64,000 nt of DNA from an uncultured Bacilli bacterium (GCA_934101495.1 CAKORG010000002.1:510-64509); one strand, 5' to 3'. Counted from the first letter of the stretch, positions 24,590-41,155 are shown. Notes: a model not told the origin generated them from the letters alone. Made by a program: numbers and translations.

Positions 24590-24648
24590 TAGTTTATATT
24601 TTTGAATTTTTTTTGTATAATCTGGGTGAAGAATGAGGAGGATCCGGT

Positions 24649-24933: not shown

Positions 24934-24948
24934 AATTCATTCTTTTTT
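24922..24948. terminator. bidirectional hairpin shared by the convergent divIC and clpP 3' ends
   Basis: AGAATGAATT-ag-AATTCATTCT palindrome spans both stop codons, with a T-run on the + strand side. Confidence 0.5.
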
Positions 24949-25508: not shown

Positions 25509-25604
25509 AATATATCACCTACATAAATAATAGTAAAATATGTTATTTTTTATTCACAAATAGTAAAAAAATTGATATAATTAATAAGAATAGAGGGAGA
25601 TTAG

Positions 25605-27251
25605 ATGGATATAGTTAAAGTTACATTTAATGATAATACTGTTCACGAGTACAAAAAAGGTACTTTGTTTTATGATGCTAGTAAAGATTTTGATATGGAA
25701 AATATTGTTGGTTATAAGATAAATAACGAAGTATTTTCTTTAGATAATAAAATACTTGAAGAAGTAAAAATTGATTTTATAAATACTGATGATTTAATTG
25801 GTAATAGGATTTATAAAGCAGGTCTAAAGTTTTTGTTTTTAGTTGCTTTACAAGAAGTTTTTAATGGTTTTGATGTTTCGTTTGAACATAGTGTTCCAAG
25901 AGGTATGTTAGGAATTATTGAAGGTCCACGAATACTTACACAAGAAGATATTTCCTTTATTAAGGAGAAAATGTGTAAAATAATTAATGATGATGAAATA
26001 ATAACTAAGTTAAATGTTTCTCCGAAAGATGCAATTAAGTATTATAAAGATAAAAATGAGTATGAAAAAGCAAATAATATCCAAAATATAAGTGATAAGG
26101 TTGTTAATTTGTATAAACTTAAGAATAAACTTAATTATTTTTATTCATTAATGCCTTATAGTACCGGGGCTTTAAATAAGTTTGAGCTTGTTTATTTAGG
26201 AAATAATAAGGTAATACTTTTGTTTCCAACAACCCGAAGTCATGGTAATGTTCCTGAGTATGTTCATTATGATAAAATTATTGAAAGTTTTGCAAGTGGA
26301 AAAAAATGGCTTGAAAACTTAAATATGCCATATGTCACGGATTTAAATAAAGATGTTGGAACTGGCAAAATAATTAATTTTATTAAATCAAGTGAGCTTA
26401 TGTTTAATTTAAATATTGCAGAAGTTGCTAAAGAAATTGAGAGGAATAAAGATATTAAGTTTATACTTATTGCAGGTCCATCATCAAGTGGAAAGACAAC
26501 AACAACAAGTAGGTTAGCATCATATTTCGAAACTTTGGGTTATAATCCAATAAACATAAGTTTAGATGATTATTTTGTTAATAGAGATGATACTCCGAAA
26601 GATGAAAATGGTAAATTTGATTTTGAATGTTTAGAAGCTTTGGATGTTAAATTATTTAATGAAAACTTAGGTAAGCTACTTGCTGGTGAAAGTATTAAAT
26701 TACCTAAATATAATTTTATGACTGGACTTAGAGAATACTATAAGGGTGAAGTTAAAATGACTAATAAAAGTATTTTCTTAATTGAAGGGTTGCATGCTTT
26801 AAATGATGAACTTACTAAGGAAATTGATAAAAAGTTTAAATATAAAATTTATTTAAGTCCATTTATTCCTTTAAGTATAGATAAATATAATTATGTGTCA
26901 ACATTAGATTTAAGATTACTTAGAAGAATAGTCAGGGATAATAGAACACGTGGATATGATGTTATAAAAACTATTGATAATTGGCAAAGTGTTAGAAATG
27001 GAGAAGAAAAATATATATTTCCATATATACATCAAGCTAATTCAATAGTTAATACAGCACTTCCATATGAGGTTGGGGTTTTGAAGGTTTATGTTGAGCC
27101 ACTTCTTTTGTCAGTAAGTGTGGATAGCATTTATTACGAAGAAGCTAGAAGATTAGTGGATTTTTTGAAACAATTCTTTCCCATACCGGGAGAATATGTT
27201 AATGATGAATCAATATTGCGTGAATTTATAGGAGGAAGATATAATGATTAA
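25605..27251 (+). CDS. nucleoside/uridine kinase-family P-loop protein with N-terminal TGS-like domain
   Basis: Walker A IAGPSSSGKTTT. The C-terminal half resembles the uridine kinase/PRK family. The N-terminal about 60 aa is TGS-like. Confidence 0.7.
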   Translation: MDIVKVTFNDNTVHEYKKGTLFYDASKDFDMENIVGYKINNEVFSLDNKILEEVKIDFINTDDLIGNRIYKAGLKFLFLVALQEVFNGFDVSFEHSVPRGMLGIIEGPRILTQEDISFIKEKMCKIINDDEIITKLNVSPKDAIKYYKDKNEYEKANNIQNISDKVVNLYKLKNKLNYFYSLMPYSTGALNKFELVYLGNNKVILLFPTTRSHGNVPEYVHYDKIIESFASGKKWLENLNMPYVTDLNKDVGTGKIINFIKSSELMFNLNIAEVAKEIERNKDIKFILIAGPSSSGKTTTTSRLASYFETLGYNPINISLDDYFVNRDDTPKDENGKFDFECLEALDVKLFNENLGKLLAGESIKLPKYNFMTGLREYYKGEVKMTNKSIFLIEGLHALNDELTKEIDKKFKYKIYLSPFIPLSIDKYNYVSTLDLRLLRRIVRDNRTRGYDVIKTIDNWQSVRNGEEKYIFPYIHQANSIVNTALPYEVGVLKVYVEPLLLSVSVDSIYYEEARRLVDFLKQFFPIPGEYVNDESILREFIGGRYND

Positions 27252-28248
27252 AGTAGCAATTAATGGTTTTGGTAGAATAGGCAGACTAGCCTTTAGACAA
27301 ATAGTTACACAAACAGATTTTGATATTGTAGCTATTAATGATTTAACAAGTGCGGAGGATTTAGCATATTTAGTTAAATATGATACAGTGCATGGTTCAT
27401 TTCATGAAGATGAAATTAAAGCAGAAGGTAATGAAATAGTAGTTGCAGGTGTTAAGAGAATTAAAGTTTATAGTGAAACTGACCCAGCTAATTTACCTTG
27501 GGGGGAACTTGGAGTTGATTTAGTTCTTGAATGTACTGGTAAGTTTACTCAAAAAGAAGATGCAATGAAACATATTACTGCTGGTGCTAAAAAAGTATTA
27601 ATTAGTGCTCCAGGTAAAGGTGAAATGAAGACAGTTGTTTATAATGTTAATGATAGCATTTTAACAAATGATGATGTTATTGTTAGTGCAGCAAGTTGTA
27701 CAACAAATTGTTTAGCTCCAGTTCTTAATATTTTGCAAAAAAATATTGGTATTAAAAAAGGATTTATGACAACTGTTCATGCTTATACAAATGATCAAGC
27801 AACACTTGATATAGCTCATAAAAAAGGTATTAAATCAAGACGTGGTAGAGCATGTGCTCAAAATATTGTTCCATCTAGTACAGGAGCAGCAAAAGCTATT
27901 GGTTTGGTTATTCCTGAACTTCTTGGTAAGCTTGATGGTAATGCTTTAAGGGTTCCAACTGCGGATGGTTCTGCTCTAGATTTAACTTTAGAACTAAATA
28001 GAAATACAAATGTAGAAGAAATTAATAAATTATTTAGTGAAAATCAAAATGAAACAATTAAATTTACAATGGATCCAATTGTTTCAAGTGATTGTCTAGG
28101 CAAAAAGGTTGGGGCAATAGTTGATGGCCTTTCTACAAGCATTGTGGAAGCTGATGGTTCTCAACTTGTTAAAGTACTAGCTTGGTATGATAATGAGTAT
28201 GGTTATACTGCTCAAATGCTTAGAACTGCTAAAAAAATGTTTCAATAA
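27244..28248 (+). CDS. gap: type I glyceraldehyde-3-phosphate dehydrogenase
   Basis: KVAINGFGRIGRLAFR, ASCTTNCLAP, WYDNEYGY. Confidence 0.97.
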   Translation: MIKVAINGFGRIGRLAFRQIVTQTDFDIVAINDLTSAEDLAYLVKYDTVHGSFHEDEIKAEGNEIVVAGVKRIKVYSETDPANLPWGELGVDLVLECTGKFTQKEDAMKHITAGAKKVLISAPGKGEMKTVVYNVNDSILTNDDVIVSAASCTTNCLAPVLNILQKNIGIKKGFMTTVHAYTNDQATLDIAHKKGIKSRRGRACAQNIVPSSTGAAKAIGLVIPELLGKLDGNALRVPTADGSALDLTLELNRNTNVEEINKLFSENQNETIKFTMDPIVSSDCLGKKVGAIVDGLSTSIVEADGSQLVKVLAWYDNEYGYTAQMLRTAKKMFQ

Positions 28249-28258
28249 AATAAAAAAG

Positions 28259-28279
28259 CTCTCAGAAATGAGGGTTTTT
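28259..28279 (+). terminator. intrinsic terminator after gap
   Basis: CTCTCA-gaaa-TGAGGG hairpin followed by TTTTT. Confidence 0.5.
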
Positions 28280-28349
28280 AAAAATAGACTAGCAAAATTC
28301 TTAAAAATGGTATATTAAATTTTAAATTGAAGGGAGAATTGATAATTAA

Positions 28350-28886
28350 ATGGATACTATAGTTGGAATATTATTTGTTTCTATATTTGGAACTTTACTT
28401 CATTTTATGTATGAGTGGAGTGGACATAAAAGTTTTGTTTCAATATTTGCTGCGGTTAATGAAAGTACATGGGAGCATATTAAAATAGCTTTGACTCCAA
28501 GTTTTATATGGATGTTATATGACGGAGCAAAATATGGCTTAGAACCTAATTATTTTGTAGCTAAGACCGTTAGTTTACTTGCAATAATAATTATTATACC
28601 CGTACTTTTTTACACATATCAAATATTTACTAAGAAAACTATGTTACCAATTGATATAATAATATTTTATATAGCTATTATTGTTAGTAATTTGTTATTT
28701 AAATATTTAATTCTTTTGGATCCAACTAATTTCTTTATTACTTATTTTGCAGTAATATTATTATTTATTATATTTGGATTTTATATGGTACTTACATTAA
28801 TGCCATTTGAAAACTTTATATTTAAAGATCCAATAACTAATAAGTATGGAGTAAAAGGACATTCTCATCATGAACATAAGAAATAA
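28350..28886 (+). CDS. polytopic membrane protein of unknown function
   Basis: Five or six hydrophobic helices, NESTWEHIK motif, His-rich C-terminus. Confidence 0.6.
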   Translation: MDTIVGILFVSIFGTLLHFMYEWSGHKSFVSIFAAVNESTWEHIKIALTPSFIWMLYDGAKYGLEPNYFVAKTVSLLAIIIIIPVLFYTYQIFTKKTMLPIDIIIFYIAIIVSNLLFKYLILLDPTNFFITYFAVILLFIIFGFYMVLTLMPFENFIFKDPITNKYGVKGHSHHEHKK

Positions 28887-28894: not shown

Positions 28895-29152
28895 TTAGTT
28901 GTTTTTTTTAATTAATTTAACATTAGTTAATATTGACTTTTTATATGGCTTCCTTTCATCAGTTCTTCCCACTAAGTAGTCTAGTGAAGTGTTATAAAAT
29001 TCAGCTAAGTCATATAGATAATTAATTGGAATTAATCTTTTACCAATTTCATATTCACTATATTGTTGTTGTTTTATACCTAATGCTTTAGCAACATCTA
29101 TTTGTTTTAAATCTTTATCTTCGCGTATTTCTTTTAATCTTGATATATCCAT
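28895..29152 (-). CDS. XRE-family helix-turn-helix transcriptional regulator
   Basis: 85 aa. LKQIDVAKALGIKQQQYSEYEIGKRLIPINYLYDLAEFYNTSLDYLVGRTD is a canonical HTH_3 domain. Confidence 0.9.
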   Translation of the reverse strand: MDISRLKEIREDKDLKQIDVAKALGIKQQQYSEYEIGKRLIPINYLYDLAEFYNTSLDYLVGRTDERKPYKKSILTNVKLIKKNN

Positions 29153-29179
29153 GAGACACCTCTATCAACATTTTGACAG

Positions 29180-29220
29180 ACAAAGGATGTTTTGTATTGA
29201 TTTTACAAGACATCTTTTGT
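29180..29220. promoter_or_regulatory. operator-like inverted repeat overlapping the island promoter
   Basis: ACAAAGGATGT (29180-29190) and ACATCTTTTGT (29210-29220) are complementary at 10 of 11 positions, 19 nt apart. Confidence 0.5.
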
Positions 29221-29225
29221 ATAAT
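29197..29225 (+). promoter_or_regulatory. sigma-A promoter of the accessory operon
   Basis: TTGATT at 29197-29202, 17-nt spacer, TATAAT at 29220-29225. Confidence 0.6.
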
Positions 29226-29267
29226 GTTTGTAGAATAGTAATGTTCTTGATTACTTAGGAGGTATTT

Positions 29268-29804
29268 ATGGATCAACTAGAAGAAAAAGAAATAGAAATT
29301 AGTAGAGAGTATGATTATTCTAATTCTGTTCCTGAAGTACAAAACATTTTGTTTTTAGCTAAATACTGCTATTCTTACTATGTTCAATTAATTAAAATGT
29401 GTGAAGAAGATGAAGAAAAAAACCGAATTTTAAAATCTGAATATAAAGATTTTCTATATAAAAAATCATTTAGTTCTAAATACGAAGTTGCCATTAGAGA
29501 AAAAGACGTTTTTTCAAGTCTGTCATGCAAAACATACGATTCTTTAGTTGAAGCGGCTAATTCTGGACATCTTAAAAATGTAGAAAGTGTGGTAATAACT
29601 TTAGATTTATCGTTTAGAAGAGGAAGAGATATGGCTACAAAAGAACATGAAAATTTATTTAAAATATCTTTTAAACCATATAATATTGTTTTTATTCGCA
29701 AATCTAATTATGCGGATTCTAGTATGGATAATATAGAAAATGTTATAAATGAGATTTTAAAAAAGTTTAGAGTGCAAAATACTATATTCTGTACCAAGGA
29801 ATAA
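29268..29804 (+). CDS. hypothetical soluble protein (178 aa), paralogous to the N-domain of the next ORF
   Basis: GGAGG RBS. By eye it shares the pattern E(D/E)E.KNR.L.S.Y...(S)K..V.I......YDS... with the product of 29829-30773. Confidence 0.65.
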   Translation: MDQLEEKEIEISREYDYSNSVPEVQNILFLAKYCYSYYVQLIKMCEEDEEKNRILKSEYKDFLYKKSFSSKYEVAIREKDVFSSLSCKTYDSLVEAANSGHLKNVESVVITLDLSFRRGRDMATKEHENLFKISFKPYNIVFIRKSNYADSSMDNIENVINEILKKFRVQNTIFCTKE

Positions 29805-29828
29805 ATTATAGTGGACGGAGGTAAAAAA

Positions 29829-30773
29829 ATGTATAACGATACAATTAAAGCTGAAAATAAAATAATAAGTAGTGATGATTTGGCACAAATATTTCAATTG
29901 ATGGGAGAAACATTAAAAAAGTATCTTAGAGTTTCTGAGCAAGAAGAAATGAAAAATAGAATGTTAGATAGTTCTTATCAAAGCTATACTTTTAAGGATG
30001 AAGGTAGTAAAATAAAAGTGATTGTTGATTTTTATGATAATACAAATATTACTTTTGATAACTATGATAGTTTTATGGGTATATTTTATAGTAGAATAAA
30101 TGAAATAAAGACTATGGACGTTTATTATTCATTAAATTATACTGTCATGAATCCCGAACCAAATAGAAGTAGAAGTTATTATACTCAATCAATTCAAATG
30201 CATATTAATGAAAATAAATTATCTATAGAATTAAACTTAAAAAGTGAAGATCCTAAACTAGATGATGTATATAAGTTTATAAAAAACAAAATACTTAATG
30301 CTCCAGAGAAATATGATGATATAATTAAAAATAAAAACAAAATTATGAATACGATTACCTTTGCTACTGGGTTAATACCTGGTATGGTTATGGCAGCTTT
30401 ATTATTATTTGTTCCATATGTTAATAATATAATTTTTAAGGGTTTTGTTGTTTATCCGTTAATTGTTTTATTCATTGCTTATCTAATTGGTAGTATGATT
30501 GCTTCATCTAAACTAGATAACTATTATGAGCCAATAATACCTAGTAAAAAATACGTTGGGTATGATTCAACAAATAATGAAAGAATTTATAAAGACGATA
30601 TAGATTCATTTGTAAGTTCTAGTGAAATTTTGATAGGTAAAAAAGTTAATAATTTAGATTATCGCAGAATAATTAAAAAAGAATATGAAAAGTATAAAGA
30701 TTTGATTCCAAAGGAATTAGTTGCATTATTGATTGTAACCATTATTATCATTATTATCGGGATATTTATTTAA
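29829..30773 (+). CDS. hypothetical membrane protein (cytoplasmic N-domain plus 3 TM helices)
   Basis: GGAGG lies 7 nt before ATG 29829. TM helices: ITFATGLIPGMVMAALLLFVPYV, GFVVYPLIVLFIAYLIGSMIASS and C-terminal LVALLIVTIIIIIIGIFI. Confidence 0.65.
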   Translation: MYNDTIKAENKIISSDDLAQIFQLMGETLKKYLRVSEQEEMKNRMLDSSYQSYTFKDEGSKIKVIVDFYDNTNITFDNYDSFMGIFYSRINEIKTMDVYYSLNYTVMNPEPNRSRSYYTQSIQMHINENKLSIELNLKSEDPKLDDVYKFIKNKILNAPEKYDDIIKNKNKIMNTITFATGLIPGMVMAALLLFVPYVNNIIFKGFVVYPLIVLFIAYLIGSMIASSKLDNYYEPIIPSKKYVGYDSTNNERIYKDDIDSFVSSSEILIGKKVNNLDYRRIIKKEYEKYKDLIPKELVALLIVTIIIIIIGIFI

Positions 30774-30804
30774 AAATTGTATAAAGTAAAAGGAAGAAGT
30801 AAAA

Positions 30805-31587
30805 ATGGATGGAAAAATAAGAGAAATTATTGACGAGTATAAAAAAAGAACTGAGAAGGAATGTTGTTTTATAAATTATGCTTTTGAATTTCCAACTATA
30901 TTAGACGACAAGATTGGAGGAAAACCCTATTTACCTGTGGGAGAAGAGTATCCAAAAGATAAGTATGGAAATCCAATGGCTTTATTCATGCAAGTGAATT
31001 TGACAAAGTTAGATTTAGAAGGTTATCCAAAAGGAATTTTAGAATTGTTTGTTACAACAAATGAAGATGATCTTTTTGACTTTGAAATAGCAGAAGGTAG
31101 CTTTGAAATAAAGCTTTTTGAAGAAGATTTAGAATACCAAACAATACTACCTGATGTGAAATTAGAAACATTTTTAGTAAGTGGTCCAATAAAAATAGAG
31201 TTTAATAAAGGGAAAATGAGCATGCCATATAATATGGGAGATAATAAAGCTGTAAATTTATTGTTAGATTTATTTGAAGAAAAATTTGATGTAAAAATAA
31301 ATTATCCAAGTGATTTGGAAAAATTATTTGGTATAGATTATTATGATTTACAAGATAAATTAGATGATGGTAGTGGTTTTGCTTCACATGTAGGGGCTTA
31401 TGCGGCTTTTATAAATGACCCATATATTGATTATTATGATAAAGAAGAATGCTTAATTTTTATTGGATCAAATTTAAGTGAAATGTTTGATTTGGGTAAC
31501 GCCTCTAGCTTTTATGTGTTAATATCAAGAAAAGATTTGTTAAATAAAGATTTTTCAAATGTTACTTGTAATTTTGAATGGTCATAA
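30805..31587 (+). CDS. YwqG/DUF1963-family protein
   Basis: GGKPYLPVGEEYPKDKYGNPMALFMQVNL, and C-terminal FYVLISRKDLLNKDFSNV, typical of the YwqG family. Confidence 0.7.
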   Translation: MDGKIREIIDEYKKRTEKECCFINYAFEFPTILDDKIGGKPYLPVGEEYPKDKYGNPMALFMQVNLTKLDLEGYPKGILELFVTTNEDDLFDFEIAEGSFEIKLFEEDLEYQTILPDVKLETFLVSGPIKIEFNKGKMSMPYNMGDNKAVNLLLDLFEEKFDVKINYPSDLEKLFGIDYYDLQDKLDDGSGFASHVGAYAAFINDPYIDYYDKEECLIFIGSNLSEMFDLGNASSFYVLISRKDLLNKDFSNVTCNFEWS

Positions 31588-31601
31588 AAAGGAGAAATCA
31601 T

Positions 31602-31853
31602 ATGGAAGAAGAGAGAAAAGATAATAAAGTAATAATCAATGGCAAAGAATATGAAATTATTTCTTATATTGCTATTGATAGTGGAAATTTCATTGTTTAT
31701 ACGGATGGAAAACAATTAGAAAATGGAAAAATTGTGTTATATGTTAATCGTGTTTCTCAAGAAAATGAAGAAATAGTATTTGATGAAGTAGAAGATACTG
31801 AAGTAATGCAAGTAATTGATGCATTAAGAGAAAGGTTGATAACTAATGAATAA
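31602..31853 (+). CDS. DUF1292-like small acidic protein
   Basis: NGKEYEIISYIAIDSGNFIVY...IVLYVNRV...EIVFDEVEDTEVMQVIDAL follows the DUF1292/YrzB pattern. GGAG lies 7 nt before the ATG. Confidence 0.5.
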   Translation: MEEERKDNKVIINGKEYEIISYIAIDSGNFIVYTDGKQLENGKIVLYVNRVSQENEEIVFDEVEDTEVMQVIDALRERLITNE

Positions 31854-33192
31854 TAAATATGATAGTTTAGTTGATTATTCTATAGAACTTAGAAAGAGCA
31901 TAGAAAAAGTTGATACTGTTATACTTTGGTCGAAACCTCCGAAACAAATGGGAAGTTTAAAAGTTACACTACGAGGTATTTCTGAGATTTTTGAAAATAT
32001 TAAAAAAGTGCAAGAATTGCGAGAAAAAATGAGAAAATTTCCTAGTATGGATAATGAAGCTAAGCAAGAAAATAAAAGTGCTAGAAAGGCTGCGGACCAA
32101 ATAAGTTCTATAAGAGAAGAACTAGCTGAAAGTTTTTCTAAAATGCGAGATGAATTTTCAAAACAAATGAAAATTGCAGGAAAACAGTGTAGAGAAGTAA
32201 GTAGTTCAATAACTGATAAACGAGATAAAGAAACATTTAAATCCTCATGTAAAAACTTTGAGAGAATGGCTTATGAAGCTGAATATGAAAAACATAGAAT
32301 ACCTTTTGTTGAAAAACAGACTACAGAAGAAAGAATACAAGACCCAATAAGAAGAGAACATAAGGAAAAAGAGGAAAAAATAAATAGACTTTCAGAGTTT
32401 GAATTAGAGAATAACGATAAATTAGAGGTGGCTTTAAGTGAACTTACTACAATATTAGCATTAACTCCGATGGATAATTTATCAAAAGAAATTAGAAGTG
32501 AAGTTGCTCAGATTAGGAAAGCTTTGCCACCTAAAACTATGTCTATAACTAAAGAAAATTTAGAAAAACTACGACATTCTTCGCATTTGTTGCTAGACTT
32601 AGACCAAATAAGTGATATCTTGAAAACTACTTATGGTTTTGATGGAAAAGATGGAAGATTACAAAAAATAAATAAAAGATTAGAAAACTTAAAAACATTA
32701 TTAACACAAGCAATAAAAGAAGAAAAAGAAAATAGAGTAGACCTTAAACAAGAACAAGATAGTCTTCAAAGTAAGGTTGATTATGCAACTGAAGCTGTTA
32801 AAACTTATGGTGATATATTAGATGGAAATCAAAGACTTGAACAGGAACAGATACGAATTAGTAATGAAACTCATGGACTAAATGCTGAAAACGAAAGATT
32901 AAAAGCTGATGAGAAAAAAGCAAGTGAAGAGATGCATGAAATACAAAAGAAACCCGTTGATAGACAAGATTGGAAAGATGAACTAAAAGTTGATCAATTA
33001 CATGAACGGGCAAAAAATGATCGTGAAATGATAAAAGATAATGAAACTTATATGGCTGATAAAATGTACGAAAAACCTGTAGTTACTTTGCCGCCGGAAT
33101 ACACTAACATGAAAAAGAAACTTCAAAGTATGAGTTCTTTATATCAAAAGCAAATGACTCAACAACTATCTAATGGAGGTGCTTCAAGATAA
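31846..33192 (+). CDS. hypothetical 448-aa highly charged coiled-coil protein
   Basis: Long ORF overlapping the upstream stop by 8 nt. K/E-rich with heptad-like stretches. No enzymatic motif recognised. Confidence 0.6.
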   Translation: MNNKYDSLVDYSIELRKSIEKVDTVILWSKPPKQMGSLKVTLRGISEIFENIKKVQELREKMRKFPSMDNEAKQENKSARKAADQISSIREELAESFSKMRDEFSKQMKIAGKQCREVSSSITDKRDKETFKSSCKNFERMAYEAEYEKHRIPFVEKQTTEERIQDPIRREHKEKEEKINRLSEFELENNDKLEVALSELTTILALTPMDNLSKEIRSEVAQIRKALPPKTMSITKENLEKLRHSSHLLLDLDQISDILKTTYGFDGKDGRLQKINKRLENLKTLLTQAIKEEKENRVDLKQEQDSLQSKVDYATEAVKTYGDILDGNQRLEQEQIRISNETHGLNAENERLKADEKKASEEMHEIQKKPVDRQDWKDELKVDQLHERAKNDREMIKDNETYMADKMYEKPVVTLPPEYTNMKKKLQSMSSLYQKQMTQQLSNGGASR

Positions 33193-33473
33193 TGGAAGAT
33201 AAGCAAAAAGTTTTTGCATCTTTTATGGATGAATTTGTTAAACTAGATATTAGTCAAAAAAACAATGAAATAGTTGAAAAACAAAAGTTAATATTAGCTT
33301 TTTTAATTAAATTTGCAACAGAACATGGAATTAGCTTTGAATTTTTAAAAAGCAAGGAAATAAGTGATATAGAGGGAAACAATGGAACTAATGAAGATTA
33401 TTTAGAAGCTATGATGGTTTATACTCAAAATATTGAAGAGTTAATAGGAATTATATTAGGAAATATACAATAA
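33192..33473 (+). CDS. hypothetical small helical protein (93 aa)
   Basis: The start overlaps the upstream stop by 1 nt (TAATG). Confidence 0.5.
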   Translation: MEDKQKVFASFMDEFVKLDISQKNNEIVEKQKLILAFLIKFATEHGISFEFLKSKEISDIEGNNGTNEDYLEAMMVYTQNIEELIGIILGNIQ

Positions 33474-33498
33474 ATTGTTTAAGAAAGAAGGAAAAATT

Positions 33499-33765
33499 AT
33501 GAATGAAGAAGAAACCAAAAGAATTATTGAAACGTTTAAAAGTTCGAGAGAAAAAATTGGCGAACAATATGAAACACTAATTAAAGAAGTAGATAACGAT
33601 TTAAAAAAGATATTAACTGAAGAAGAATATAATGTTTGGAATGCAGTAAATGGTGATAGAGATAAAGAACAAGAGTTAATAAATAAGATTGGTAAAGAAA
33701 GATATAAGGTATTATTAAGTAAAATAAGTGATAAAATATCAGATAAAATGAAAAATGTTAATTAA
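33499..33765 (+). CDS. hypothetical small helical protein (88 aa)
   Basis: ATG 33499 is preceded by GAAGGA. Charged and predicted helical. Confidence 0.5.
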   Translation: MNEEETKRIIETFKSSREKIGEQYETLIKEVDNDLKKILTEEEYNVWNAVNGDRDKEQELINKIGKERYKVLLSKISDKISDKMKNVN

Positions 33766-34438
33766 AGTGGTTGCAGTTATGATGGAAATAAATAGATTAA
33801 AAAGAAAAGATATAAGAGAAAAATTACTTGGTATTAATCATAGTTCAGAAGATTTTGAAATTAATTTTGTTAGTGTTGTTGAAGATTATATCTCAAATCA
33901 TGAATTTGAATCAGATGATGATTTTCTATTTTGTGGAAGAAAAAAATTTCTATATGATGAGTTTTATGAATATTTAGATAATAAAGAAAAATACGAAAAT
34001 CCTATACACTTTGCTATTATTAATTTAGAGGAATTTATTTGTGATGATAATTTTATTTCTTTAACTATGGATATTGATAAACAGTATTGGAAAAATGAAG
34101 AAAAACTAGATGGAAGTGTTGTTGCAAAATTAAGGAATAGAAATGATAAATATTCTGCATCGGGATACATTTGTCTAGAAGAAAAAGAATATATTGTAGA
34201 AATGCTTAATAGAATTAAAAAAGAAATGTTTAGAACCGATAAATTTACTTATCATGAGGGCGAGATTAAAATAGTTGATTGTCAATGTGAATTATGTAAT
34301 CATTATAATAATGGAAAAAGAAGTGATGTATGTCCAGTTGAATTATTAGATAAAATAATTATTAATGAAATTAGTTGTCCCGTTTCTGCTGAAGAAAATT
34401 CATTTGAAAACATTATGAAGAGGATTGATTCGAATTAA
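33755..34438 (+). CDS. hypothetical protein with C-terminal Cys cluster
   Basis: CQCELCNHYNNGKRSDVCPVE...ISCP near the C-terminus. Alternative start at 33779. Confidence 0.5.
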   Translation: MLIKVVAVMMEINRLKRKDIREKLLGINHSSEDFEINFVSVVEDYISNHEFESDDDFLFCGRKKFLYDEFYEYLDNKEKYENPIHFAIINLEEFICDDNFISLTMDIDKQYWKNEEKLDGSVVAKLRNRNDKYSASGYICLEEKEYIVEMLNRIKKEMFRTDKFTYHEGEIKIVDCQCELCNHYNNGKRSDVCPVELLDKIIINEISCPVSAEENSFENIMKRIDSN

Positions 34439-34517
34439 ACTGATCTAAAAATTATGATTTATCTTTACGCTGATTTTAAAATAACCATTTAATAAGTAAG
34501 AAAGGAATGAAATTTAA

Positions 34518-35564
34518 ATGAATAATAATATAGTCTTATATAAATCAACTGGTGAGGGTTATGAAATAACTACTATTAAAGAAAATGGAAATGTTGAATA
34601 CAAAAGTAATTCAAGTGATAAAAAAATAGTTCATATAGATTTTTTTAATGATTTAGTGAATGAATTAAATGGTGCTTTTGAAAAAATGCAATACGTTTAT
34701 GATAATGAAAAAAGTGAAACATTTTGTGTTAGATATAGAAATTATGATTTTTATAGTTTTGATTTATATTTAGATATTATATTAATGATTAGAAATAACA
34801 AATTAAAAAAGCTATCTGTTTATGAAAAATATAAAAAATTAAAAAAAACGCAAGAAAAGCAAAAAATTTCAACAATTTTAAACAAATTAGAAAACGAAAA
34901 AAATAAAATTGATATAATAGATGTTGATTCAACATTAAATGATGAAAGAAATATTATATTATTTGATTTAATTAATAAAAATGAGTTTCGAGTTGGAGAA
35001 ACAAAGTTTTTTTCAAATACTGTTGATGTAAATGAAAATGTAGAGATACCAGAATATTTAATATTTGTTGGACAAATAAATTTGGAAGAAGTGTCAAAGT
35101 ATGATATAAATAAACTATTACCTAAAAAGGGAATGCTGTATTTTTATATAAGCCCATTATTCTATAATGATAAAATGTATGACTTTGGAAAAGTTATTTA
35201 TGTTCCTTCAGCTGAAGATTTAGTAAGAAAAAAAGTAACTATGTCAGAAGAAGAAACAATGGATTCTTTTGGAATAAACAATATTAAAAATTGCAATGAG
35301 AAATTTAGTGATAGATATTATTTTGAAAAAGGAAAAAAAACATATTCACATTTTTATGGAGAAAAACTTAATAAAATATTTGGATTTTATACTGATTGTC
35401 AAATGGATGAGGGAGATATAAGGAAAGTATCTAATAAATATATAGTGTTATTACAATTAGGAACGCAGATATATGGAGAAGGAGTTACTACATTTTTAAT
35501 AACAGAGGAAGATTTGAAAAATAAGAATTTTGATAATGTTATTTATCAATATGTTCAATCATAA
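34518..35564 (+). CDS. YwqG/DUF1963-family protein with about 170-aa N-terminal extension
   Basis: IPEYLIFVGQINLEEVSKYDINKLLPKKGMLYFYIS, and C-terminal YIVLLQLGTQIYGEGVTTFLITEEDLKNKNFDNV. Confidence 0.65.
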   Translation: MNNNIVLYKSTGEGYEITTIKENGNVEYKSNSSDKKIVHIDFFNDLVNELNGAFEKMQYVYDNEKSETFCVRYRNYDFYSFDLYLDIILMIRNNKLKKLSVYEKYKKLKKTQEKQKISTILNKLENEKNKIDIIDVDSTLNDERNIILFDLINKNEFRVGETKFFSNTVDVNENVEIPEYLIFVGQINLEEVSKYDINKLLPKKGMLYFYISPLFYNDKMYDFGKVIYVPSAEDLVRKKVTMSEEETMDSFGINNIKNCNEKFSDRYYFEKGKKTYSHFYGEKLNKIFGFYTDCQMDEGDIRKVSNKYIVLLQLGTQIYGEGVTTFLITEEDLKNKNFDNVIYQYVQS

Positions 35565-35627
35565 ATTCTTATTAAATTGATTTTACTATAATAAAATAAT
35601 TAAATATTATATGAGGAGGATTAAAAA

Positions 35628-35930
35628 ATAGAAATAGTTGTACAAGGAAAAGGAGTAGAATATTTTACGCCTGATGAGGTAATTTTAAATATAAGTTTTA
35701 ATACAAAAGATCAAAGTTATGAAGAAGCGGTTGGAAAAAGTTTAAAACAATGTGTAAAAGTTGATTTCAAGCCATTTACTATAGATTGTATATCACAAAG
35801 TGCCATTAACTCAGATATGATGTATGCTAAAGATACAAGATTTGATGCAGCACCAACAATTATTAATACATTTACACCAGAAGATATTGAATTATCTGAA
35901 ACATTGTATTGTTTGTGGATAACAGAGTAA
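35628..35930 (+). pseudogene. decayed SIMPL/DUF541-like gene remnant
   Basis: A 100-codon open frame with GAGGAGGA about 8 nt upstream, but ATA where ATG is expected. Translation: IEIVVQGKGVEYFTPDEVILNISF...EEAV ... PTIINTFTPEDIELSETLYCLWI, which resembles the SIMPL N- and C-termini without the middle. Absent from the ORF track because it has no start codon. Confidence 0.4.
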
Positions 35931-35933
35931 ATG

Positions 35934-35982
35934 AAAAGACCATTAGTAAATTAAACAAATAATTTATAGATGGTCTTTTTTT
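35934..35982. terminator. bidirectional terminator between the island and the flippase gene
   Basis: AAAAGACCAT...ATGGTCTTTT arms with an AT-rich inner stem, an A-run upstream and a T-run downstream. Confidence 0.55.
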
Positions 35983-35986
35983 AAAA

Positions 35987-37597
35987 TTATTTTTTTCTTT
36001 TAAATTTATTTAATAATCTATCTCCGAGGAGTTTGTTAAGTAAGTCTTTATTCATTAAATAATAAAGTATTAAACAAATAAGACCTATAAATCCTAGAGC
36101 TAGTAACATATATAATTTGCCTGTAATATGATTAAATATAAGTGGCTTTATAATTAGACATATTGCTATTAATATTGCTATTGTTAATATAAGTTTGGGT
36201 ATTGATTTAACTGTTTCTTTATAACTAAAGTTGTATTTATGATGCAATGTATAAAGTGGGATTATTAATGATAATATATAACCAATTGTTGTTGCAAGTA
36301 TTGCTCCGTAGAATGGATATGTACCAAGTTTATTAAATAAAAATATTAATGGGATATCTAATATTGTTTTAGTAATTAGTCCAGTTCCACATGATATGTA
36401 AATTAGTTTGGTTTTTGATAAGCCTTGAAGAGCACTACATATCATTATGTAAGCTGAGTCTAATATGGCAAGTAATATTGTATATTTAAATATTAATGGA
36501 CCATAGAAGCTTTCACCATAAAATATTGTCCATACTTCTTTTGAAAAGATACTTAAGAATATTGAAAGTGGCAATATAACATATAAAAGTACTTGAAGTG
36601 TTTTGTTAAATTGTGAATTTACTTCTTTCATATCTTTTTTTGTGTAAGATTCAACTATTGTTGGGATTAAACTTATTACAAGTCCCGTTGCAATTGCTGT
36701 TACTACACTTACAAGTTTACTTCCCCAGGTGGTAAATACTGAGGATATTGTTTCAATGTCTGCGGCTGGGTAACCTATCCAATTTAATCCTTTAATAACT
36801 AATATCATATCAACAGTATTATAAATACTATTGGCAACGTTAATAACAATAAATGGAATGCAATAGCCAATTAGTTTTTTAAATATTGTTTTCTTTTCAT
36901 CTTTAGATACTTCTTCGTATGGAACAAATAAATCTTTTTTTACTTTATTTGTTTTAATAAGTAGGTAAAGATATGAAACTAAGGCTCCTGCACACGCTCC
37001 GAATACAGCGATACCTACGGCTTGTGCAGTTGATAAGTGAAATACTTTTAGTGCTAAGTAAGAACCAACTATAATTACTAGGACCCTTACAAATTGTTCA
37101 ATTACTTGCCCAATTGATGGTGCTGCAATGTAGTGATGGCCTTGTAAGTATCCTCTGAAAATACTTAATAGTGGTACAACTAAAATGGCAAATGATACAC
37201 ATCTGATTACAAATGCAACATCTGATACTGTGTTTCCTCCAGTTAAATCACCAACTATAGTATTTGCTATTAAATTTGCTCCGAAGAAACAAATACAAAA
37301 TGATACAATTGAGAATATTCTTATTATTTTTTGTGAATATTTAAACATGTAAGTTTTTTCTTTCATTTTGCCTAATGTATTATATTCACTGGTGATTTTA
37401 CTTATAGCAAGGGGAATACCTGCGGATGATATAATTAAAAAGAAATTGTATATATTGTAAGCATAACCATATAAGGAACCACCATTTTCACCGATTATAT
37501 TATAAAATGGAATTACATAAAGTACTCCGAGTATTTTAGATAAAATTATAGCTATAGTTGCTATCAACGCACCTTCGATAAATTCGTTTTTTTTCAA
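35987..37597 (-). CDS. MOP-superfamily flippase (MurJ/SpoVB/YtgP-like polysaccharide biosynthesis protein)
   Basis: 536 aa, about 14 TM helices. N-terminal GALIATIAIILSKILGVLYVIPF is typical of the family. Confidence 0.8.
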   Translation of the reverse strand: MKKNEFIEGALIATIAIILSKILGVLYVIPFYNIIGENGGSLYGYAYNIYNFFLIISSAGIPLAISKITSEYNTLGKMKEKTYMFKYSQKIIRIFSIVSFCICFFGANLIANTIVGDLTGGNTVSDVAFVIRCVSFAILVVPLLSIFRGYLQGHHYIAAPSIGQVIEQFVRVLVIIVGSYLALKVFHLSTAQAVGIAVFGACAGALVSYLYLLIKTNKVKKDLFVPYEEVSKDEKKTIFKKLIGYCIPFIVINVANSIYNTVDMILVIKGLNWIGYPAADIETISSVFTTWGSKLVSVVTAIATGLVISLIPTIVESYTKKDMKEVNSQFNKTLQVLLYVILPLSIFLSIFSKEVWTIFYGESFYGPLIFKYTILLAILDSAYIMICSALQGLSKTKLIYISCGTGLITKTILDIPLIFLFNKLGTYPFYGAILATTIGYILSLIIPLYTLHHKYNFSYKETVKSIPKLILTIAILIAICLIIKPLIFNHITGKLYMLLALGFIGLICLILYYLMNKDLLNKLLGDRLLNKFKRKK

Positions 37598-37737
37598 AAA
37601 ATATCATCTCCGTATGTAGTTATTATATTAAAATTATGTACTTGTTTCAAGTAAACATGAGTTAAATCCATGTAAATTACATAAATTTGGCATTTATTTG
37701 ATGCATAAATCATGGTATAATTATGATGGAGGACCAT

Positions 37738-38439
37738 ATGAAGTTTATAGAATTAAAAAATGTTAATAAAACTTATAAAAATGGAATTACTGCTGTGGCA
37801 GATATGACAGTTAGTGTAGCTAAGGGTGAATTTGTTTTTGTTATTGGTCTAACTGCAAGTGGTAAATCAACATTTATTAAGATGCTTTATAGAGAAGAAA
37901 AACCAACAAGTGGTACAGTTTTTGTTGGGGGGGTAAATGTTGGAAAACTTAGAAATGGAAAAGTTTATAAATTAAGAAGAAAAGTTGGTATTGTATTCCA
38001 GGATTTTAAATTATTACCTAGACTAACAGTATATGAAAATGTAGCATTTGCTTTGGAGTGTATTGGTATGAAAGGTTCTGAGATAAGGCCTCAGGTTTTG
38101 AGTGCTTTAGAAAGAGTTGGGCTTAAAGAAAAAGTACGTTCTTTTCCTGGGGAACTTTCTGGTGGGGAACAACAAAGAGTTTGTATTGCAAGAGCAATTG
38201 TTAATGAACCAAAATTATTAATTTGTGATGAACCAACGGGAAATTTAGACCCTGAAACTAGTAAAGAAATAATGAAAGTTATTGAGAATATTAATAAGGA
38301 ATTGGGAACTACTATAATTATGGCTACTCATGATAAAGATATTGTTAATAGAATGAAGAAAAGGGTACTAGTTATTAATCATGGTGTTTTGACTCATGAT
38401 TATGCGAAAGGAAGTTATAAGACAAATGAGAGCATGTAG
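37738..38439 (+). CDS. ftsE: cell division ATP-binding protein FtsE
   Basis: Degenerate Walker A GLTASGKST, LSGGEQQRVCIARA, LICDEPTGNLD. Followed by ftsX. GGAGG precedes ATG 37738. Confidence 0.9.
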   Translation: MKFIELKNVNKTYKNGITAVADMTVSVAKGEFVFVIGLTASGKSTFIKMLYREEKPTSGTVFVGGVNVGKLRNGKVYKLRRKVGIVFQDFKLLPRLTVYENVAFALECIGMKGSEIRPQVLSALERVGLKEKVRSFPGELSGGEQQRVCIARAIVNEPKLLICDEPTGNLDPETSKEIMKVIENINKELGTTIIMATHDKDIVNRMKKRVLVINHGVLTHDYAKGSYKTNESM

Positions 38440-39319
38440 AATATTTTTTAGAAGTATAAGAGATGCTTTCAAGAGCGTCGTTAGAAATTTTTCTTTGAGT
38501 TTTGCATCCATTATGTGTACAACAATTACTCTTATTTTGGTGGCTGTTGCTATTGTGGCTGCTGCTAATGTTCAAAATGCAACTAAGTTAATTGAAGATG
38601 AACTTACAATTGTTACATATCTTAAAAAGGATGTAACTGAAGACCAAATTGAAAATATTAAAACTGAGTTGAAAAGTTATAAATACATTGATGAAGTGGA
38701 ATTTAAAAGCAAAGATGAATGGAAGCTTGAAATGAGTAATTATGATGACTCATTTAAGACAGTTCTGGATTATTTGGATGAAAATCCTTTGAAAGACTCT
38801 TTTGTTTTGAAGGTAAATAATGTTAAAAAATTAAGCGAAACAAGTGAATATGTTAAGGCCATAACTGGAGTTGATACTGTTAAGTATGGTGAAGGTATGG
38901 TTGAACAAGTAATATCTGTATTTGATGTTGTTCAAAAAATTGTTGTAGTTGTTGTAATAGCTTTAATTTTAGTAACAGGTTTTTTAATTAGTAATACGAT
39001 TAAACTTACAATATTTAGTAGAAGAAGTGAAATTGAAATTATGAGGCTAGTTGGTGCTAGTAATATTTCTATTAAACTACCTTTCTTATTTGAAGGGTTA
39101 ATTATTGGCTTGATTGGTTCTGTTATTCCAATATGTGTTACCATTTATGGATATGTTATTCTTTATTCAAGACTTCATGGTAAATTATTTTCAAATATGA
39201 TTATGCTTATTAAGCCTTATCCATTTGTGTTCTATGTATCATTTATTGTAGTTGCAATTGGTGCTTTGGTTGGTATGTATGGCAGTATTAAAGCTGTTAG
39301 AAAGTATTTGAAGGTGTAA
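38426..39319 (+). CDS. ftsX: cell division permease FtsX
   Basis: Four TM helices with an extracellular domain between TM1 and TM2. EIEIMRLVGAS motif. The start overlaps the ftsE end. Confidence 0.88.
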   Translation: MRACRIFFRSIRDAFKSVVRNFSLSFASIMCTTITLILVAVAIVAAANVQNATKLIEDELTIVTYLKKDVTEDQIENIKTELKSYKYIDEVEFKSKDEWKLEMSNYDDSFKTVLDYLDENPLKDSFVLKVNNVKKLSETSEYVKAITGVDTVKYGEGMVEQVISVFDVVQKIVVVVVIALILVTGFLISNTIKLTIFSRRSEIEIMRLVGASNISIKLPFLFEGLIIGLIGSVIPICVTIYGYVILYSRLHGKLFSNMIMLIKPYPFVFYVSFIVVAIGALVGMYGSIKAVRKYLKV

Positions 39320-39321
39320 CT

Positions 39322-40560: not shown

Positions 40561-40561
40561 T

Positions 40562-41059: not shown

Positions 41060-41155
41060 ATATGTAAAAGGCACGCTGTGTCTTTTTTAGTGTTGTCATC
41101 TATATCTTTTTGTGATATCATTATTTTAGAAATAAATAGGAAAAGGTGAAAATGA

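What the first reader, a model, noticed from the sequence alone, without database searches (positions are those of the whole stretch)
30805..35564. Two divergent YwqG/DUF1963 paralogues bracket a seven-gene string of mostly uncharacterised genes
The first and last genes of this string both carry YwqG-family hallmarks: the N-terminal GGxPxxP/...QINL block and the C-terminal ...LxxxDLxNKxFxNV block. They are highly diverged from each other, and the second has an extra N-terminal extension of about 170 aa. In B. subtilis, ywqG lies in the ywq locus that encodes the LXG toxin YwqJ, so this family is associated with polymorphic-toxin and immunity neighbourhoods. Between the two paralogues lie five closely spaced or overlapping genes: a gap of 14 nt, an overlap of 8 nt, an overlap of 1 nt, then a short gap. 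None has a clear function. The whole string could be an orphan immunity-gene island or a new effector/immunity or defence cassette.
Basis: partly seen in the sequence, partly recalled or inferred. Interest (0 to 1): 0.65.

Follow-up and report, generated by a model that had tools for sequence, protein, structure and literature searches.

The report
Mosaic accessory island with YwqG genes

Summary
Observation confirmed. ORFs 30805-31587 and 34518-35564 both pass the Pfam DUF1963 cut-off (92.9 and 69.1 bits against 23). The second has an N-terminal extension of about 175 aa. Five ORFs of no confirmed family lie between them.

The string is not one unit. It belongs to a 6.8-kb island (about 29198-35986) that starts two genes earlier (g1, g2). 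A species with 92-96% identical flanks lacks it.

Comparison of more than 15 related loci separates these parts:
- A frame of g1-g2 ... g8-SIMPL. g2-g8-SIMPL lies contiguous, with no cargo, inside a complete provirus.
- An autonomous three-gene module: DUF1292-like 83 aa, helical 448 aa, 93 aa. It stands alone elsewhere.
- Facultative cargo: TYPPa, TYPPb and orphan g7. Relatives carry ADP-ribosylglycohydrolase, a 959-aa protein, isochorismatase or an MBL-type ORF instead.

TYPPb has dS 0.03 against 0.5-1.25 for its neighbours, so it arrived recently. DUF1963 occurs in 2 of 56 species of the genus. LXG occurs in 0 of 19 DUF1963-bearing genomes of the class.

Function is unresolved. The most likely reading is conflict-related cargo, with the TYPP proteins acting as stand-alone binders. 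Interest is moderate.

The parts
28895..29152 (-). XRE/Cro-type HTH regulator (85 aa), divergent from the island. It is kept in G069 without the island.
   Evidence: NCBIfam RstR-type repressor E 5.8e-15; phrog_8 E 3.5e-20. 89% identical DNA in G069.
29180..29225 (+). Probable operator (inverted repeat with 17-nt arms) overlapping a sigma-70-like promoter, TTGATT-17-TATAAT, upstream of g1
   Evidence: Consensus scan only. A similar element is kept in G069 and G004.
29268..29804 (+). g1, 178-aa cytoplasmic protein with no family. It is weakly similar to the N-terminal part of g2.
   Evidence: BLASTP against g2: E 6e-4 over 53 aa. Always found next to g2 in relatives.
29811..30773 (+). g2, about 314-320-aa membrane protein (likely start 29829). 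It has a cytoplasmic N-domain, a hydrophobic region at residues 181-235 and a C-terminal TM helix.
   Evidence: Hydropathy. No family hit. Found in 4 of 56 species of the genus. 62% identical copy in provirus G454.
30805..31587 (+). g3 = TYPPa, a canonical YwqG/DUF1963 protein (260 aa)
   Evidence: Pfam 92.9 bits. PDB 1PV5 E 6.9e-16. GGxP and the first Q are present; the second-repeat Q is N. Absent from G031, L010 and L036.
31602..31853 (+). g4, 83-aa DUF1292-like protein, first gene of the conserved three-gene module (the ORF could start at 31578)
   Evidence: Pfam DUF1292 E 0.0027, below cut-off. 7 of 9 family members match DUF1292, best E 3.3e-5.
31846..33192 (+). g5, 448-aa all-helical hydrophilic protein, centre of the module. 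It evolves fast, with a conserved C-terminal motif (P416, Y419, M422, K423, L426, S430).
   Evidence: 40 cluster representatives at E <= 1e-3 among 1.84 billion. AF2 pLDDT 87.8, pTM 0.71. No significant structural match. Alignment A1.
33192..33473 (+). g6, 93-aa acidic helical protein, the most conserved member of the module
   Evidence: 50-84% identity across loci in which g5 is 23-64% identical.
33475..33765 (+). g7, orphan ORF of 88-96 aa on a roughly 316-bp insertion unique to this genome
   Evidence: No DNA match in G014, G031 or L034. Not found in 120 other genomes of the family.
33779..34438 (+). g8, about 219 aa: a conserved helical N-domain of about 150 aa plus a Cys-rich tail. It is part of the frame.
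   Evidence: 35 homologues, all unnamed. Alignment A2. AF2 N-domain confident. Only weak likeness to the ArgRS anticodon-binding domain, Z 5.5-6.3.
34518..35564 (+). g9 = TYPPb, a DUF1963 protein with a 175-aa N-terminal extension. It is a recently exchanged single-gene cassette.
   Evidence: Pfam 69.1 bits. 98.4% DNA identity to G014 against 72-85% for the other genes. dS 0.033 against 0.47-1.25. Replaced by an unrelated 207-aa ORF in G031.
35595..35931 (+). SIMPL/DUF541 pseudogene. The 5' and 3' ends are retained, with an internal deletion of about 350 bp.
   Evidence: The two pieces match the two ends of the intact 218-aa SIMPL gene of G014 and G031.
35934..35986 (+). Hairpin with 20-nt arms plus a T-run, a probable terminator at the right edge of the island
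   Evidence: Inverted repeat I22, sequence. The island ends here relative to G069, G005 and G004.

Best explanation
The string is the cargo of a mosaic, horizontally mobile accessory island of 6.8 kb (about 29198-35986). It sits in a variable site between a DUF6512 gene and a flippase gene of an uncultured, low-GC gut Bacilli MAG. It is not a single multi-protein system bracketed by YwqG genes.

SHOWN:
- A backbone of g1-g2 ... g8-SIMPL recurs in relatives. g2-g8(N-domain)-SIMPL lies contiguous inside a complete provirus.
- Between g2 and g8, and between g8 and SIMPL, different genomes hold different passengers.
- In this window the passengers are TYPPa, an autonomous three-gene module (DUF1292-like g4, helical g5, small g6), the orphan g7, and TYPPb.
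- The module is always linked and tightly coupled, and it stands alone in distant genomes.
- TYPPb is a single-gene cassette exchanged recently between species.

INFERRED:
- One promoter, overlapping a palindrome next to a divergent XRE repressor, drives g1 through g9.
- The products act as separate units.
- TYPPa and TYPPb are stand-alone cytoplasmic binding proteins. They would clamp an extended peptide of a target that is not encoded here, as the eukaryotic TYPP proteins PDCD2/Tsr4 clamp ribosomal protein uS5. They would serve in a conflict role: neutralising an incoming toxin or a phage protein.
- g4-g5-g6 form a cytoplasmic helical complex of unknown activity.

I give about 0.85 to the mosaic, independent-cargo architecture. 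I give about 0.4 to the conflict-related, stand-alone-binder role of the TYPP proteins.
For: Island status: G069 shares 24093-28877 (96%) and 35987-41916 (92%), but holds 475 unrelated bp where the island sits. G005 and G004 hold 275 and 459 bp there.

Sporadic parts in 56 species of the genus: g5 was found in 3 of 36 species sampled, g2 in 4 of 56, g6 in 4 of 56, DUF1963 in 2 of 56.

Architectures:
- G014 and L034: g1, g2, sX, ARH, TYPPa, module, g8, TYPPb, SIMPL.
- G031: no TYPP gene; a 90-aa ORF and a 207-aa ORF take those places.
- L013: a divergent TYPP-like 229-aa gene.
- L010: ARH, a 959-aa protein and a 101-aa protein instead of the module.
- L037: isochorismatase, an HExxH ORF and an MBL-motif ORF.
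- L036: module plus SIMPL only.

The module stands alone next to topA, ABC transporter, corA or Wadjet genes.

Provirus G454 has portal, major head and tail proteins. It carries ARH ... g2, g8N, SIMPL, followed by a Cro-type HTH gene and a DNA methylase.

TYPPb: 98.4% DNA identity and dS 0.033, against 72-85% and dS 0.47-1.25 for its neighbours.

TYPP homologues occur singly in unrelated neighbourhoods, some of them defence-like (TIR, Fic, a serine recombinase).

The TYPP family is predicted to mediate protein-protein interactions in a chaperone-like way, possibly binding extended peptides (PMC4275035).
Against: No function was shown for any of the nine genes. PADLOC, PHROGs and NCBIfam gave no matches. 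Structural searches for g5 and g8 gave nothing above the background expected for helical proteins.

A TYPP or TYPP-like gene sits directly upstream of the central module in five cassettes (window, G014, L034, L013, L024). That could mean a functional pairing rather than a shared insertion slot.

The shared promoter and the overlapping or closely spaced reading frames fit co-function equally well.

The provirus copy shows only that the frame can travel on a phage. It does not show that this island came from one.

The genome is a 64%-complete MAG, so partners could lie in unassembled DNA.
Confidence: 0.6

Rival explanations
1. Orphan immunity-gene island. TYPPa, TYPPb and the small ORFs are antidotes to polymorphic toxins delivered by neighbouring cells through T7SSb/LXG or another route, kept without the toxin.
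For: The slots are hypervariable and filled with unrelated small cytoplasmic proteins. Relatives carry a DraG-like ADP-ribosylglycohydrolase in the slot next to TYPPa, and Tri1 is a DraG-like immunity protein (PMC8120803). WXG100 genes exist in 10-14 of 56 species of the genus, so T7SS attackers are present in this lineage. An unchecked earlier scan note (e1-4089629) reports YwqG-like genes directly behind a toxin elsewhere.
Against: No Pfam Imm or SUKH family hits g1-g9. No LXG or WXG100 was found in the own genome. LXG was found in 0 of 19 DUF1963-bearing genomes of the class. None of six TYPP neighbourhoods sampled has a recognisable toxin or T7SS gene. The inner three-gene module is an autonomous conserved operon, not an array of immunity genes. 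ywqG is not part of the described ywqHIJKL toxin operon.
Confidence: 0.2
2. One nine-gene system. All products work together, with the two TYPP proteins as dedicated chaperones or adaptors for the helical module (TYPPa for g4/g5) and for g8 (TYPPb).
For: There is a single promoter-like site, the genes are co-directional, and the reading frames overlap or are closely spaced. A TYPP or TYPP-like gene lies directly upstream of the central module in the window, G014, L034, L013 and L024. Burroughs and Aravind noted multi-copy YwqG operons and proposed a chaperone-like role. An earlier scan note (e1-4609437) describes a conserved multi-gene TYPP cassette in another lineage (unchecked).
Against: The module occurs without any TYPP gene in G031, G028, L036, L020, L021, L022, L032 and L040. 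TYPPa and TYPPb relatives occur without the module. TYPPb has a different evolutionary history from its neighbours. g7 is unique to this genome.
Confidence: 0.1
3. Anti-phage defence hotspot. The g2|g8 junction of a phage-borne frame collects new defence (or counter-defence) systems. The three-gene module and the 959-aa plus 101-aa pair are such systems, and the TYPP proteins are accessory sensors or inhibitors.
For: The frame lies in the accessory arm of a complete provirus. L010 places the cassette between a serine recombinase and RT, Abi_2 and type I R-M genes. In G028 the module lies next to Wadjet JetA and an MBL-fold nuclease. A TYPPb relative lies next to TIR, Fic and Band_7 genes. Alternative cargo occupies one and the same slot.
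Against: There is no PADLOC hit. The three distant copies of the module whose neighbourhoods were looked up (L020-L022) lie among housekeeping-type genes. The module is not in GenBank phages or IMG/VR contigs. No enzymatic effector domain is recognisable in g4-g6. The association with defence genes rests on a handful of loci.
Confidence: 0.25

Closest known systems
YwqG family of the TYPP superfamily (Pfam DUF1963, PDB 1PV5; Burroughs and Aravind 2014, PMC4275035)
   Same: g3 aligns over its full length with B. subtilis YwqG and keeps GGxP and the first-repeat Q. g9 keeps both conserved Q residues and the C-terminal block. Like other bacterial members, both are cytoplasmic, patchily distributed and of untested function. 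More than one copy in an operon was already noted in 2014.
   Different: g3 and a quarter of its close relatives have N in place of the second-repeat Q. g9 belongs to a subfamily that lacks GGxP and carries an unassigned 175-aa N-terminal extension. Here the two copies are independent acquisitions, not a tandem duplication.
B. subtilis ywqHIJKL T7SSb LXG toxin operon (PMC13648612)
   Same: Only the gene name: ywqG lies next to this operon on the B. subtilis chromosome.
   Different: No LXG, WXG100 or Lap-type helical hairpin family is detectable in the island. g5 has no LXG domain and no C-terminal toxin domain. The described operon does not include ywqG.
Prophage and satellite hotspots that carry variable defence or moron cargo between conserved genes (own knowledge: the P2/P4 hotspots of Rousset et al. 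2022)
   Same: Conserved flanking genes (g2, g8-SIMPL) surround interchangeable, unrelated cargo. One copy of the frame lies inside a complete provirus, and some copies lie next to recombinase, Abi and R-M genes.
   Different: The island in the window is not inside a prophage. None of the cargo matches a known defence system. The frame genes themselves have no known phage function.
DUF1292 / UPF0473 (B. subtilis YrzB type)
   Same: g4 and 6 of 8 relatives give sub-threshold to moderate matches over almost the whole 75-position profile.
   Different: The window protein scores below the curated cut-off (19 against 24 bits). The canonical family sits in the ireB-ruvX housekeeping operon, not next to a long helical protein.

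Membership tests
YwqG / DUF1963 (PF09234): g3 | Pfam score above the gathering cut-off over both repeats | tested here: met
   92.9 bits against 23, profile positions 2-214 of 216. PDB 1PV5 E 6.9e-16, residues 16-258.
YwqG / DUF1963 (PF09234): g3 | GGxP motif and conserved Q of the first repeat (PMC4275035) | tested here: met
   G38-G39-K-P41 and Q63. These are conserved in 74-77 of 77 relatives.
YwqG / DUF1963 (PF09234): g3 | Nearly invariant Q of the second repeat, at the base of the pocket | tested here: not met
   N aligns with the Q of 1PV5. 18 of 77 relatives share N and 54 have Q.
YwqG / DUF1963 (PF09234): g9 | Pfam score above the gathering cut-off | tested here: met
   69.1 bits against 23, but only profile positions 22-214, residues 179-345. 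No PDB sequence match at E <= 0.01.
YwqG / DUF1963 (PF09234): g9 | GGxP motif | tested here: not met
   The aligned columns are I-N-K-N in g9 and variable across 39 subfamily members. Both Q positions are kept in 38-39 of 39.
Polymorphic-toxin immunity island | Linked, or at least genomic, toxin with a trafficking domain (LXG/WXG100/T7SSb) | tested here: inconclusive
   No LXG or WXG100 match in the own genome, but it is only 64% complete. LXG in 0 of 19 DUF1963-bearing genomes of the class. WXG100 in 10-14 of 56 species of the genus.
Polymorphic-toxin immunity island | Members belong to known immunity families (Imm, SUKH and others) | tested here: not met
   No such Pfam or NCBIfam hit for g1-g9. 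ARH is present only in relatives.
Polymorphic-toxin immunity island | Content varies between related genomes | tested here: met
T7SSb LXG substrate operon | LXG domain protein flanked by small helical WXG100/Lap partners | tested here: not met
   No PF04740 or PF06013 match in g4-g7 or in the own genome. g4 is a DUF1292-like protein, not a helical hairpin family.
DUF1292 (PF06949): g4 | Pfam score above the gathering cut-off | tested here: inconclusive
   Window protein: 19 bits against 24, E 0.0027. 7 of 9 family members match, best E 3.3e-5.
Known anti-phage defence systems (PADLOC 2.0) | A match of any island protein to a system component | tested here: not met
   Only the XRE regulator matches generic HTH models. 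g1-g9 give nothing better than E 0.0016.
Prophage-borne accessory (moron) cassette | Frame genes located inside a bona fide phage genome | tested here: met
   G454 is a provirus that CheckV rates 100% complete. Portal phrog_156 E 3e-33, major head phrog_1357 E 1e-70, tail phrog_9116 E 2e-36. g2-g8N-SIMPL lies at 34.9-37.1 kb, followed by a Cro-type HTH gene and a DNA methylase.
Prophage-borne accessory (moron) cassette | The island in this window is flanked by phage or integrase genes | tested here: not met
   The flanks are GAPDH, DUF6512, a flippase, FtsEX and PcsB. There are no att-like repeats at the edges.

The most novel reading that the evidence does not exclude
The g2|g8-SIMPL frame is a previously undescribed, phage-transmissible hotspot in uncultured gut Bacilli that collects new conflict systems. 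Under this reading, the DUF1292-like/helical/93-aa three-gene module and the 959-aa plus 101-aa pair are new anti-phage (or counter-defence) systems. The bacterial YwqG/TYPP proteins, whose function has been unknown since the 1PV5 structure, are single-gene neutralisers (immunity-type binders) that move between species as cassettes.
Probability: 0.2. Interest if true: 0.65.

Novelty: new member of a known kind. Interest (0 to 1): 0.4.

Why it matters
Bacterial YwqG/TYPP proteins are widespread and have a solved structure, but no known function. This locus gives a clean natural experiment. One TYPP gene has moved as a 1.1-kb single-gene cassette between species whose neighbouring genes are saturated with synonymous changes. 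Both TYPP genes sit in slots that other genomes fill with an ADP-ribosylglycohydrolase and other unrelated genes. That pattern argues that these proteins act alone and are selected for something transferable, which narrows the experiments worth doing.

The work also delimits two uncharacterised units in uncultured gut Bacilli that can be tested separately. One is a rare, tightly coupled three-gene module. The other is a phage-transmissible frame. The work removes an attractive but unsupported link to T7SS/LXG toxins. No function is established, so the finding is a lead rather than a discovery.

Tried and rejected
- Family scans of g1-g9 against Pfam, NCBIfam, PADLOC and PHROGs gave only the two DUF1963 hits and a weak DUF1292 hit.
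- ESM Atlas feature searches for g5 and g8 gave nothing usable. For g2 they returned only unnamed clusters.
- The AF2 model of g5 is confident (pLDDT 88). Foldseek against PDB gave a best E of 0.17 (ClyA-type tripartite pore-forming toxins, TM below 0.25). VIA-align gave Z up to 10.8, all generic four-helix bundles and below the background of about 13 for helical proteins. The Atlas gave TM below 0.3. g5 has no hydrophobic segment, so I rejected a pore-forming-toxin reading.
- For the AF2 model of g8, the best matches are ArgRS anticodon-binding domains at Z 5.5-6.3, below the noise level. I keep this only as a lead.
- Profile searches of the g5 and g8 families and of the 959-aa protein against PDB sequences found nothing.
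- g5, g2 and g8 have no match in GenBank phages. The g6 family has no match in IMG/VR.
- A repeat search found no att-like or cassette-boundary repeats, only AT-rich chance matches.
- The search for related loci with the g5 alignment failed because no block was conserved enough.
No binding or expression test was therefore possible.
- g6 and the 101-aa partner of the 959-aa protein are not detectably related.
- The ORF upstream of g2 in the provirus is not detectably g1.

Full report
1. WHAT IS THERE

The window is contig C2 of a 1.04-Mb MAG with about 25% GC, estimated 64% complete. Related contigs are titled 'uncultured Bacilli bacterium' from rabbit and Hadza gut metagenomes.

On the + strand, nine ORFs run from 29268 to 35564. 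I call them g1 to g9.
- g3 (30805-31587) and g9 (34518-35564) pass the Pfam DUF1963 cut-off: 92.9 and 69.1 bits against 23.
- g3 aligns over its full length with B. subtilis YwqG (1PV5, E 6.9e-16).
- g9 matches only from residue 179, so it has an N-terminal extension of about 175 aa.
- The two are barely alignable with each other.

In an alignment of 116 relatives:
- The g3 subfamily keeps GGxP and the first-repeat Q. g3 has N at the second-repeat Q, as do 18 of 77 relatives.
- The g9 subfamily lacks GGxP and keeps both Q residues.

The five ORFs between them have no family above threshold in Pfam, NCBIfam, PADLOC or PHROGs. Only g2 has hydrophobic segments; the rest are cytoplasmic. Two points need extending: the string starts two genes earlier, and g9 lacks one of the claimed motifs.

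2. IT IS AN ISLAND

The species with the most similar flanks, G069, matches the window at 24093-28877 (96%) and 35987-41916 (92%). It also keeps the divergent XRE gene and its palindrome (28954-29197, 89%). It has 475 unrelated bp where the window has 29198-35986. G005 and G004 have 275 and 459 bp at the same place. The site between the DUF6512 gene and the flippase gene is therefore a variable spot, and the island is 6.8 kb.

A sigma-70-like promoter (TTGATT-17-TATAAT, 29197-29225) overlaps an inverted repeat with 17-nt arms next to the XRE gene. A hairpin plus T-run closes the island at 35934-35986. I infer one XRE-controlled transcript. This was not tested.

3. IT IS A MOSAIC

I compared the island with more than 15 loci from relatives and metagenomes. 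Four kinds of part separate.

(a) A frame: g1-g2 on the left and g8-SIMPL on the right. In the window, SIMPL is a pseudogene with an internal deletion of about 350 bp.

(b) A three-gene module: g4 (83 aa), g5 (448 aa) and g6 (93 aa).
- 7 of 9 members of the g4 family match DUF1292, best E 3.3e-5.
- The three genes are together, in this order and with overlapping or abutting frames, in the intact loci. These include loci where the module stands alone next to topA, an ABC transporter, corA-holA or a Wadjet system.
- Decayed remnants also exist (L037, L039).
- G028 carries a second, divergent copy of 89/560/97 aa.
- g6 is the most conserved (50-84% identity) and g5 the least (23-64%).
- The g5 family is small: 40 cluster representatives at E <= 1e-3 among 1.84 billion.

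(c) Alternative centres. L010 and L024 have a 959-aa protein plus a 92-101-aa protein. L037 has an isochorismatase, an HExxH ORF, an MBL-motif ORF and a truncated g6.

(d) Facultative single genes:
- TYPPa is present in the window, G014 and L034, absent in G031, L010 and L036, and replaced by a divergent 229-aa TYPP-like gene in L013.
- TYPPb is present in the window, G014 and L034. G031 has an unrelated 207-aa ORF in its place.
- An ADP-ribosylglycohydrolase occurs in G014, L034, L013 and L010.
- An 86-91-aa ORF occurs in several loci.
- g7 lies on a 316-bp insertion found only here.

4. THE TWO TYPP GENES HAVE DIFFERENT HISTORIES

Against G014, synonymous divergence is 0.47-1.25 for g1, g2, TYPPa, g4, g5, g6 and g8. 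For TYPPb it is 0.033. The TYPPb gene and the 79-bp spacer before it are 96-98% identical in DNA, against 72-85% for the other genes. TYPPb was therefore exchanged recently as a cassette of about 1.1 kb.

dN/dS is 0.08-0.27 for the other genes and 0.40 for TYPPb, on very few substitutions. All are selected genes.

DUF1963 occurs in 2 of 56 species of the genus, both times in this island, and in 31 of 401 genomes of the class. Relatives of TYPPa and TYPPb elsewhere are solitary genes in unrelated neighbourhoods:
- next to def;
- next to the 959-aa protein;
- between unknown large proteins;
- next to TIR, Fic and Band_7 genes;
- next to a serine recombinase;
- among housekeeping genes.

5. THE FRAME TRAVELS ON A PHAGE

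An IMG/VR provirus, G454 (41.2 kb), is rated 100% complete by CheckV. It has a portal, a major head protein and tail proteins by PHROGs. At 34.9-37.1 kb it carries g2 (62-63% identical), a 165-aa g8 consisting of the N-domain only, and SIMPL, directly adjacent and with no cargo. An ADP-ribosylglycohydrolase, an HD-domain protein and a DUF6882 protein lie upstream. A Cro-type HTH gene and a DNA methylase lie downstream. L010 places the cassette beside a large serine recombinase and RT, Abi_2 and type I R-M genes. G031 has an IS66 transposase beside it. The island in the window has no phage or integrase gene next to it and no boundary repeats.

6. THE T7SS/LXG IDEA

- The own genome has no WXG100 or LXG match, though it is only 64% complete.
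- WXG100 is present in 10-14 of 56 species of the genus. It does not track the island: G031 and G028 have none, and G014 has only a sub-threshold hit.
- None of 19 DUF1963-bearing genomes of the class, all at least 91% complete, has an LXG match.
- A 2026 preprint defines the B. subtilis operon as ywqHIJKL and never mentions ywqG.
- The only published analysis of the family (Burroughs and Aravind 2014) proposes a chaperone-like, protein-protein interaction role, possibly binding extended peptides. It notes multi-copy operons and finds no specific bacterial pathway.

It is not a family property that I could reproduce.

7. WHAT THE INNER PROTEINS LOOK LIKE

The g5 model is confident (pLDDT 87.8, pTM 0.71) and entirely helical. 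It has an N-terminal four-helix bundle and long hairpins. No structural match rises above the background for helical proteins. The g5 family has a conserved C-terminal motif (P416, Y419, M422, K423, L426, S430) next to the strongly conserved g6. I take this, as inference, to be a docking site within the module.

g8 has a confident helical N-domain of about 150 aa with invariant polar residues (R9, G53-R54-K56, E61, E85, N91, N122, Y125, E135). Its tail is poorly modelled and Cys-rich. Its best structural matches are arginyl-tRNA synthetase anticodon-binding domains at Z 5.5-6.3, which is within noise. Separately, the ORF before g2 in the provirus gives a sub-threshold Anticodon_2 hit (E 4.8e-4). 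Two weak hints do not make a finding, and I list them only as a lead.

8. MECHANISM I COMMIT TO

- Architecture (shown): independent modules in a mobile, partly phage-borne frame.
- Expression (inferred): one XRE-gated transcript.
- TYPPa and TYPPb (inferred, about 0.4): stand-alone cytoplasmic binders of an extended peptide of a protein not encoded here. They would serve a conflict function, neutralising an incoming toxin or a phage protein. The grounds are that they move alone, are patchy, share slots with a DraG-like hydrolase of the kind used as immunity protein Tri1 (PMC8120803), and sometimes sit in defence-like islands.
- g4-g5-g6 (inferred): a cytoplasmic helical complex of unknown activity.

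The rivals are a pure orphan-immunity island (0.2), one nine-gene system with TYPP chaperones (0.1), and a defence hotspot in which the module itself is a new system (0.25). These overlap in part with the functional half of my explanation.

9. EARLIER NOTES OF THIS SCAN (unchecked leads)

- Several notes report DUF1292-like small proteins paired with long helical proteins in gut Bacilli (e1-4396283, e1-4552419).
- One follow-up found no support for an LXG link of another TYPP protein (e1-098996).
- One reports YwqG-like genes behind a toxin (e1-4089629).
- One reports a conserved multi-gene TYPP cassette (e1-4609437).

The scan has therefore met both the module and TYPP cassettes before, on other DNA.

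10. VERDICT

The TYPP genes are new members of a known, uncharacterised family. The three-gene module and the frame are undescribed but functionless so far. Interest is 0.4.

Noticed in passing
window 35595-35931: SIMPL/DUF541 pseudogene. The 5' 134 bp and the 3' 208 bp match the two ends of the intact 218-aa gene of relatives, with about 350 bp deleted between them.
   Followed up: yes
window 28908-29198 and L043 4803-5519 (G069): The site between the DUF6512 gene and the flippase gene is variable in its own right. G069 keeps the XRE gene and palindrome but has a different small hydrophobic ORF in place of the island. G004 has a similar palindrome and another small ORF.
   Followed up: partly
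L030 5680-8038 (G028:C1 about 66180-68540): G028 has a second, strongly diverged copy of the three-gene module (89/560/97 aa), about 15 kb from the first.
   Followed up: partly
L009 12663-14126 and upstream 2749-5607: In G028 the module lies between a 952-aa MBL-fold/RMMBL protein and a Wadjet JetA (DUF2397) gene.
   Followed up: no
L010 6796-9987; L024 8840-11999: A 959-aa protein of no known family, followed by a 92-101-aa protein, takes the place of the three-gene module in two cassettes. In L024 it sits directly after a TYPP gene.
   Followed up: partly
L010 12708-21137: Downstream of one cassette lie a reverse-transcriptase gene (weak RVT_1 hit), Metallophos, Abi_2 and a type I restriction-modification system. 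A large serine recombinase lies upstream.
   Followed up: no
window 33779-34240 (g8 N-domain); L046 9540-9968: Two weak hints of anticodon-binding-like helical domains in the frame. The g8 model's best matches are ArgRS DALR domains (Z 5.5-6.3). The ORF before g2 in the provirus has a sub-threshold Anticodon_2 hit (E 4.8e-4).
   Followed up: no
L039 7817-8273: A decayed copy of the module: only the last 59 codons of g5 and a g6 with two in-frame stops remain.
   Followed up: partly
L034, L035 record titles: Contigs carrying the same cassette are titled 'uncultured Clostridium sp.' and 'Agathobacter sp.', while their sequence is Bacilli-MAG-like. These are probably mislabelled or mis-binned records.
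   Followed up: no
L046 4374-5090: The provirus accessory arm also carries a DUF6882 protein (E 8e-20), an HD-domain protein, and several unassigned ORFs in one co-directional array.
   Followed up: no
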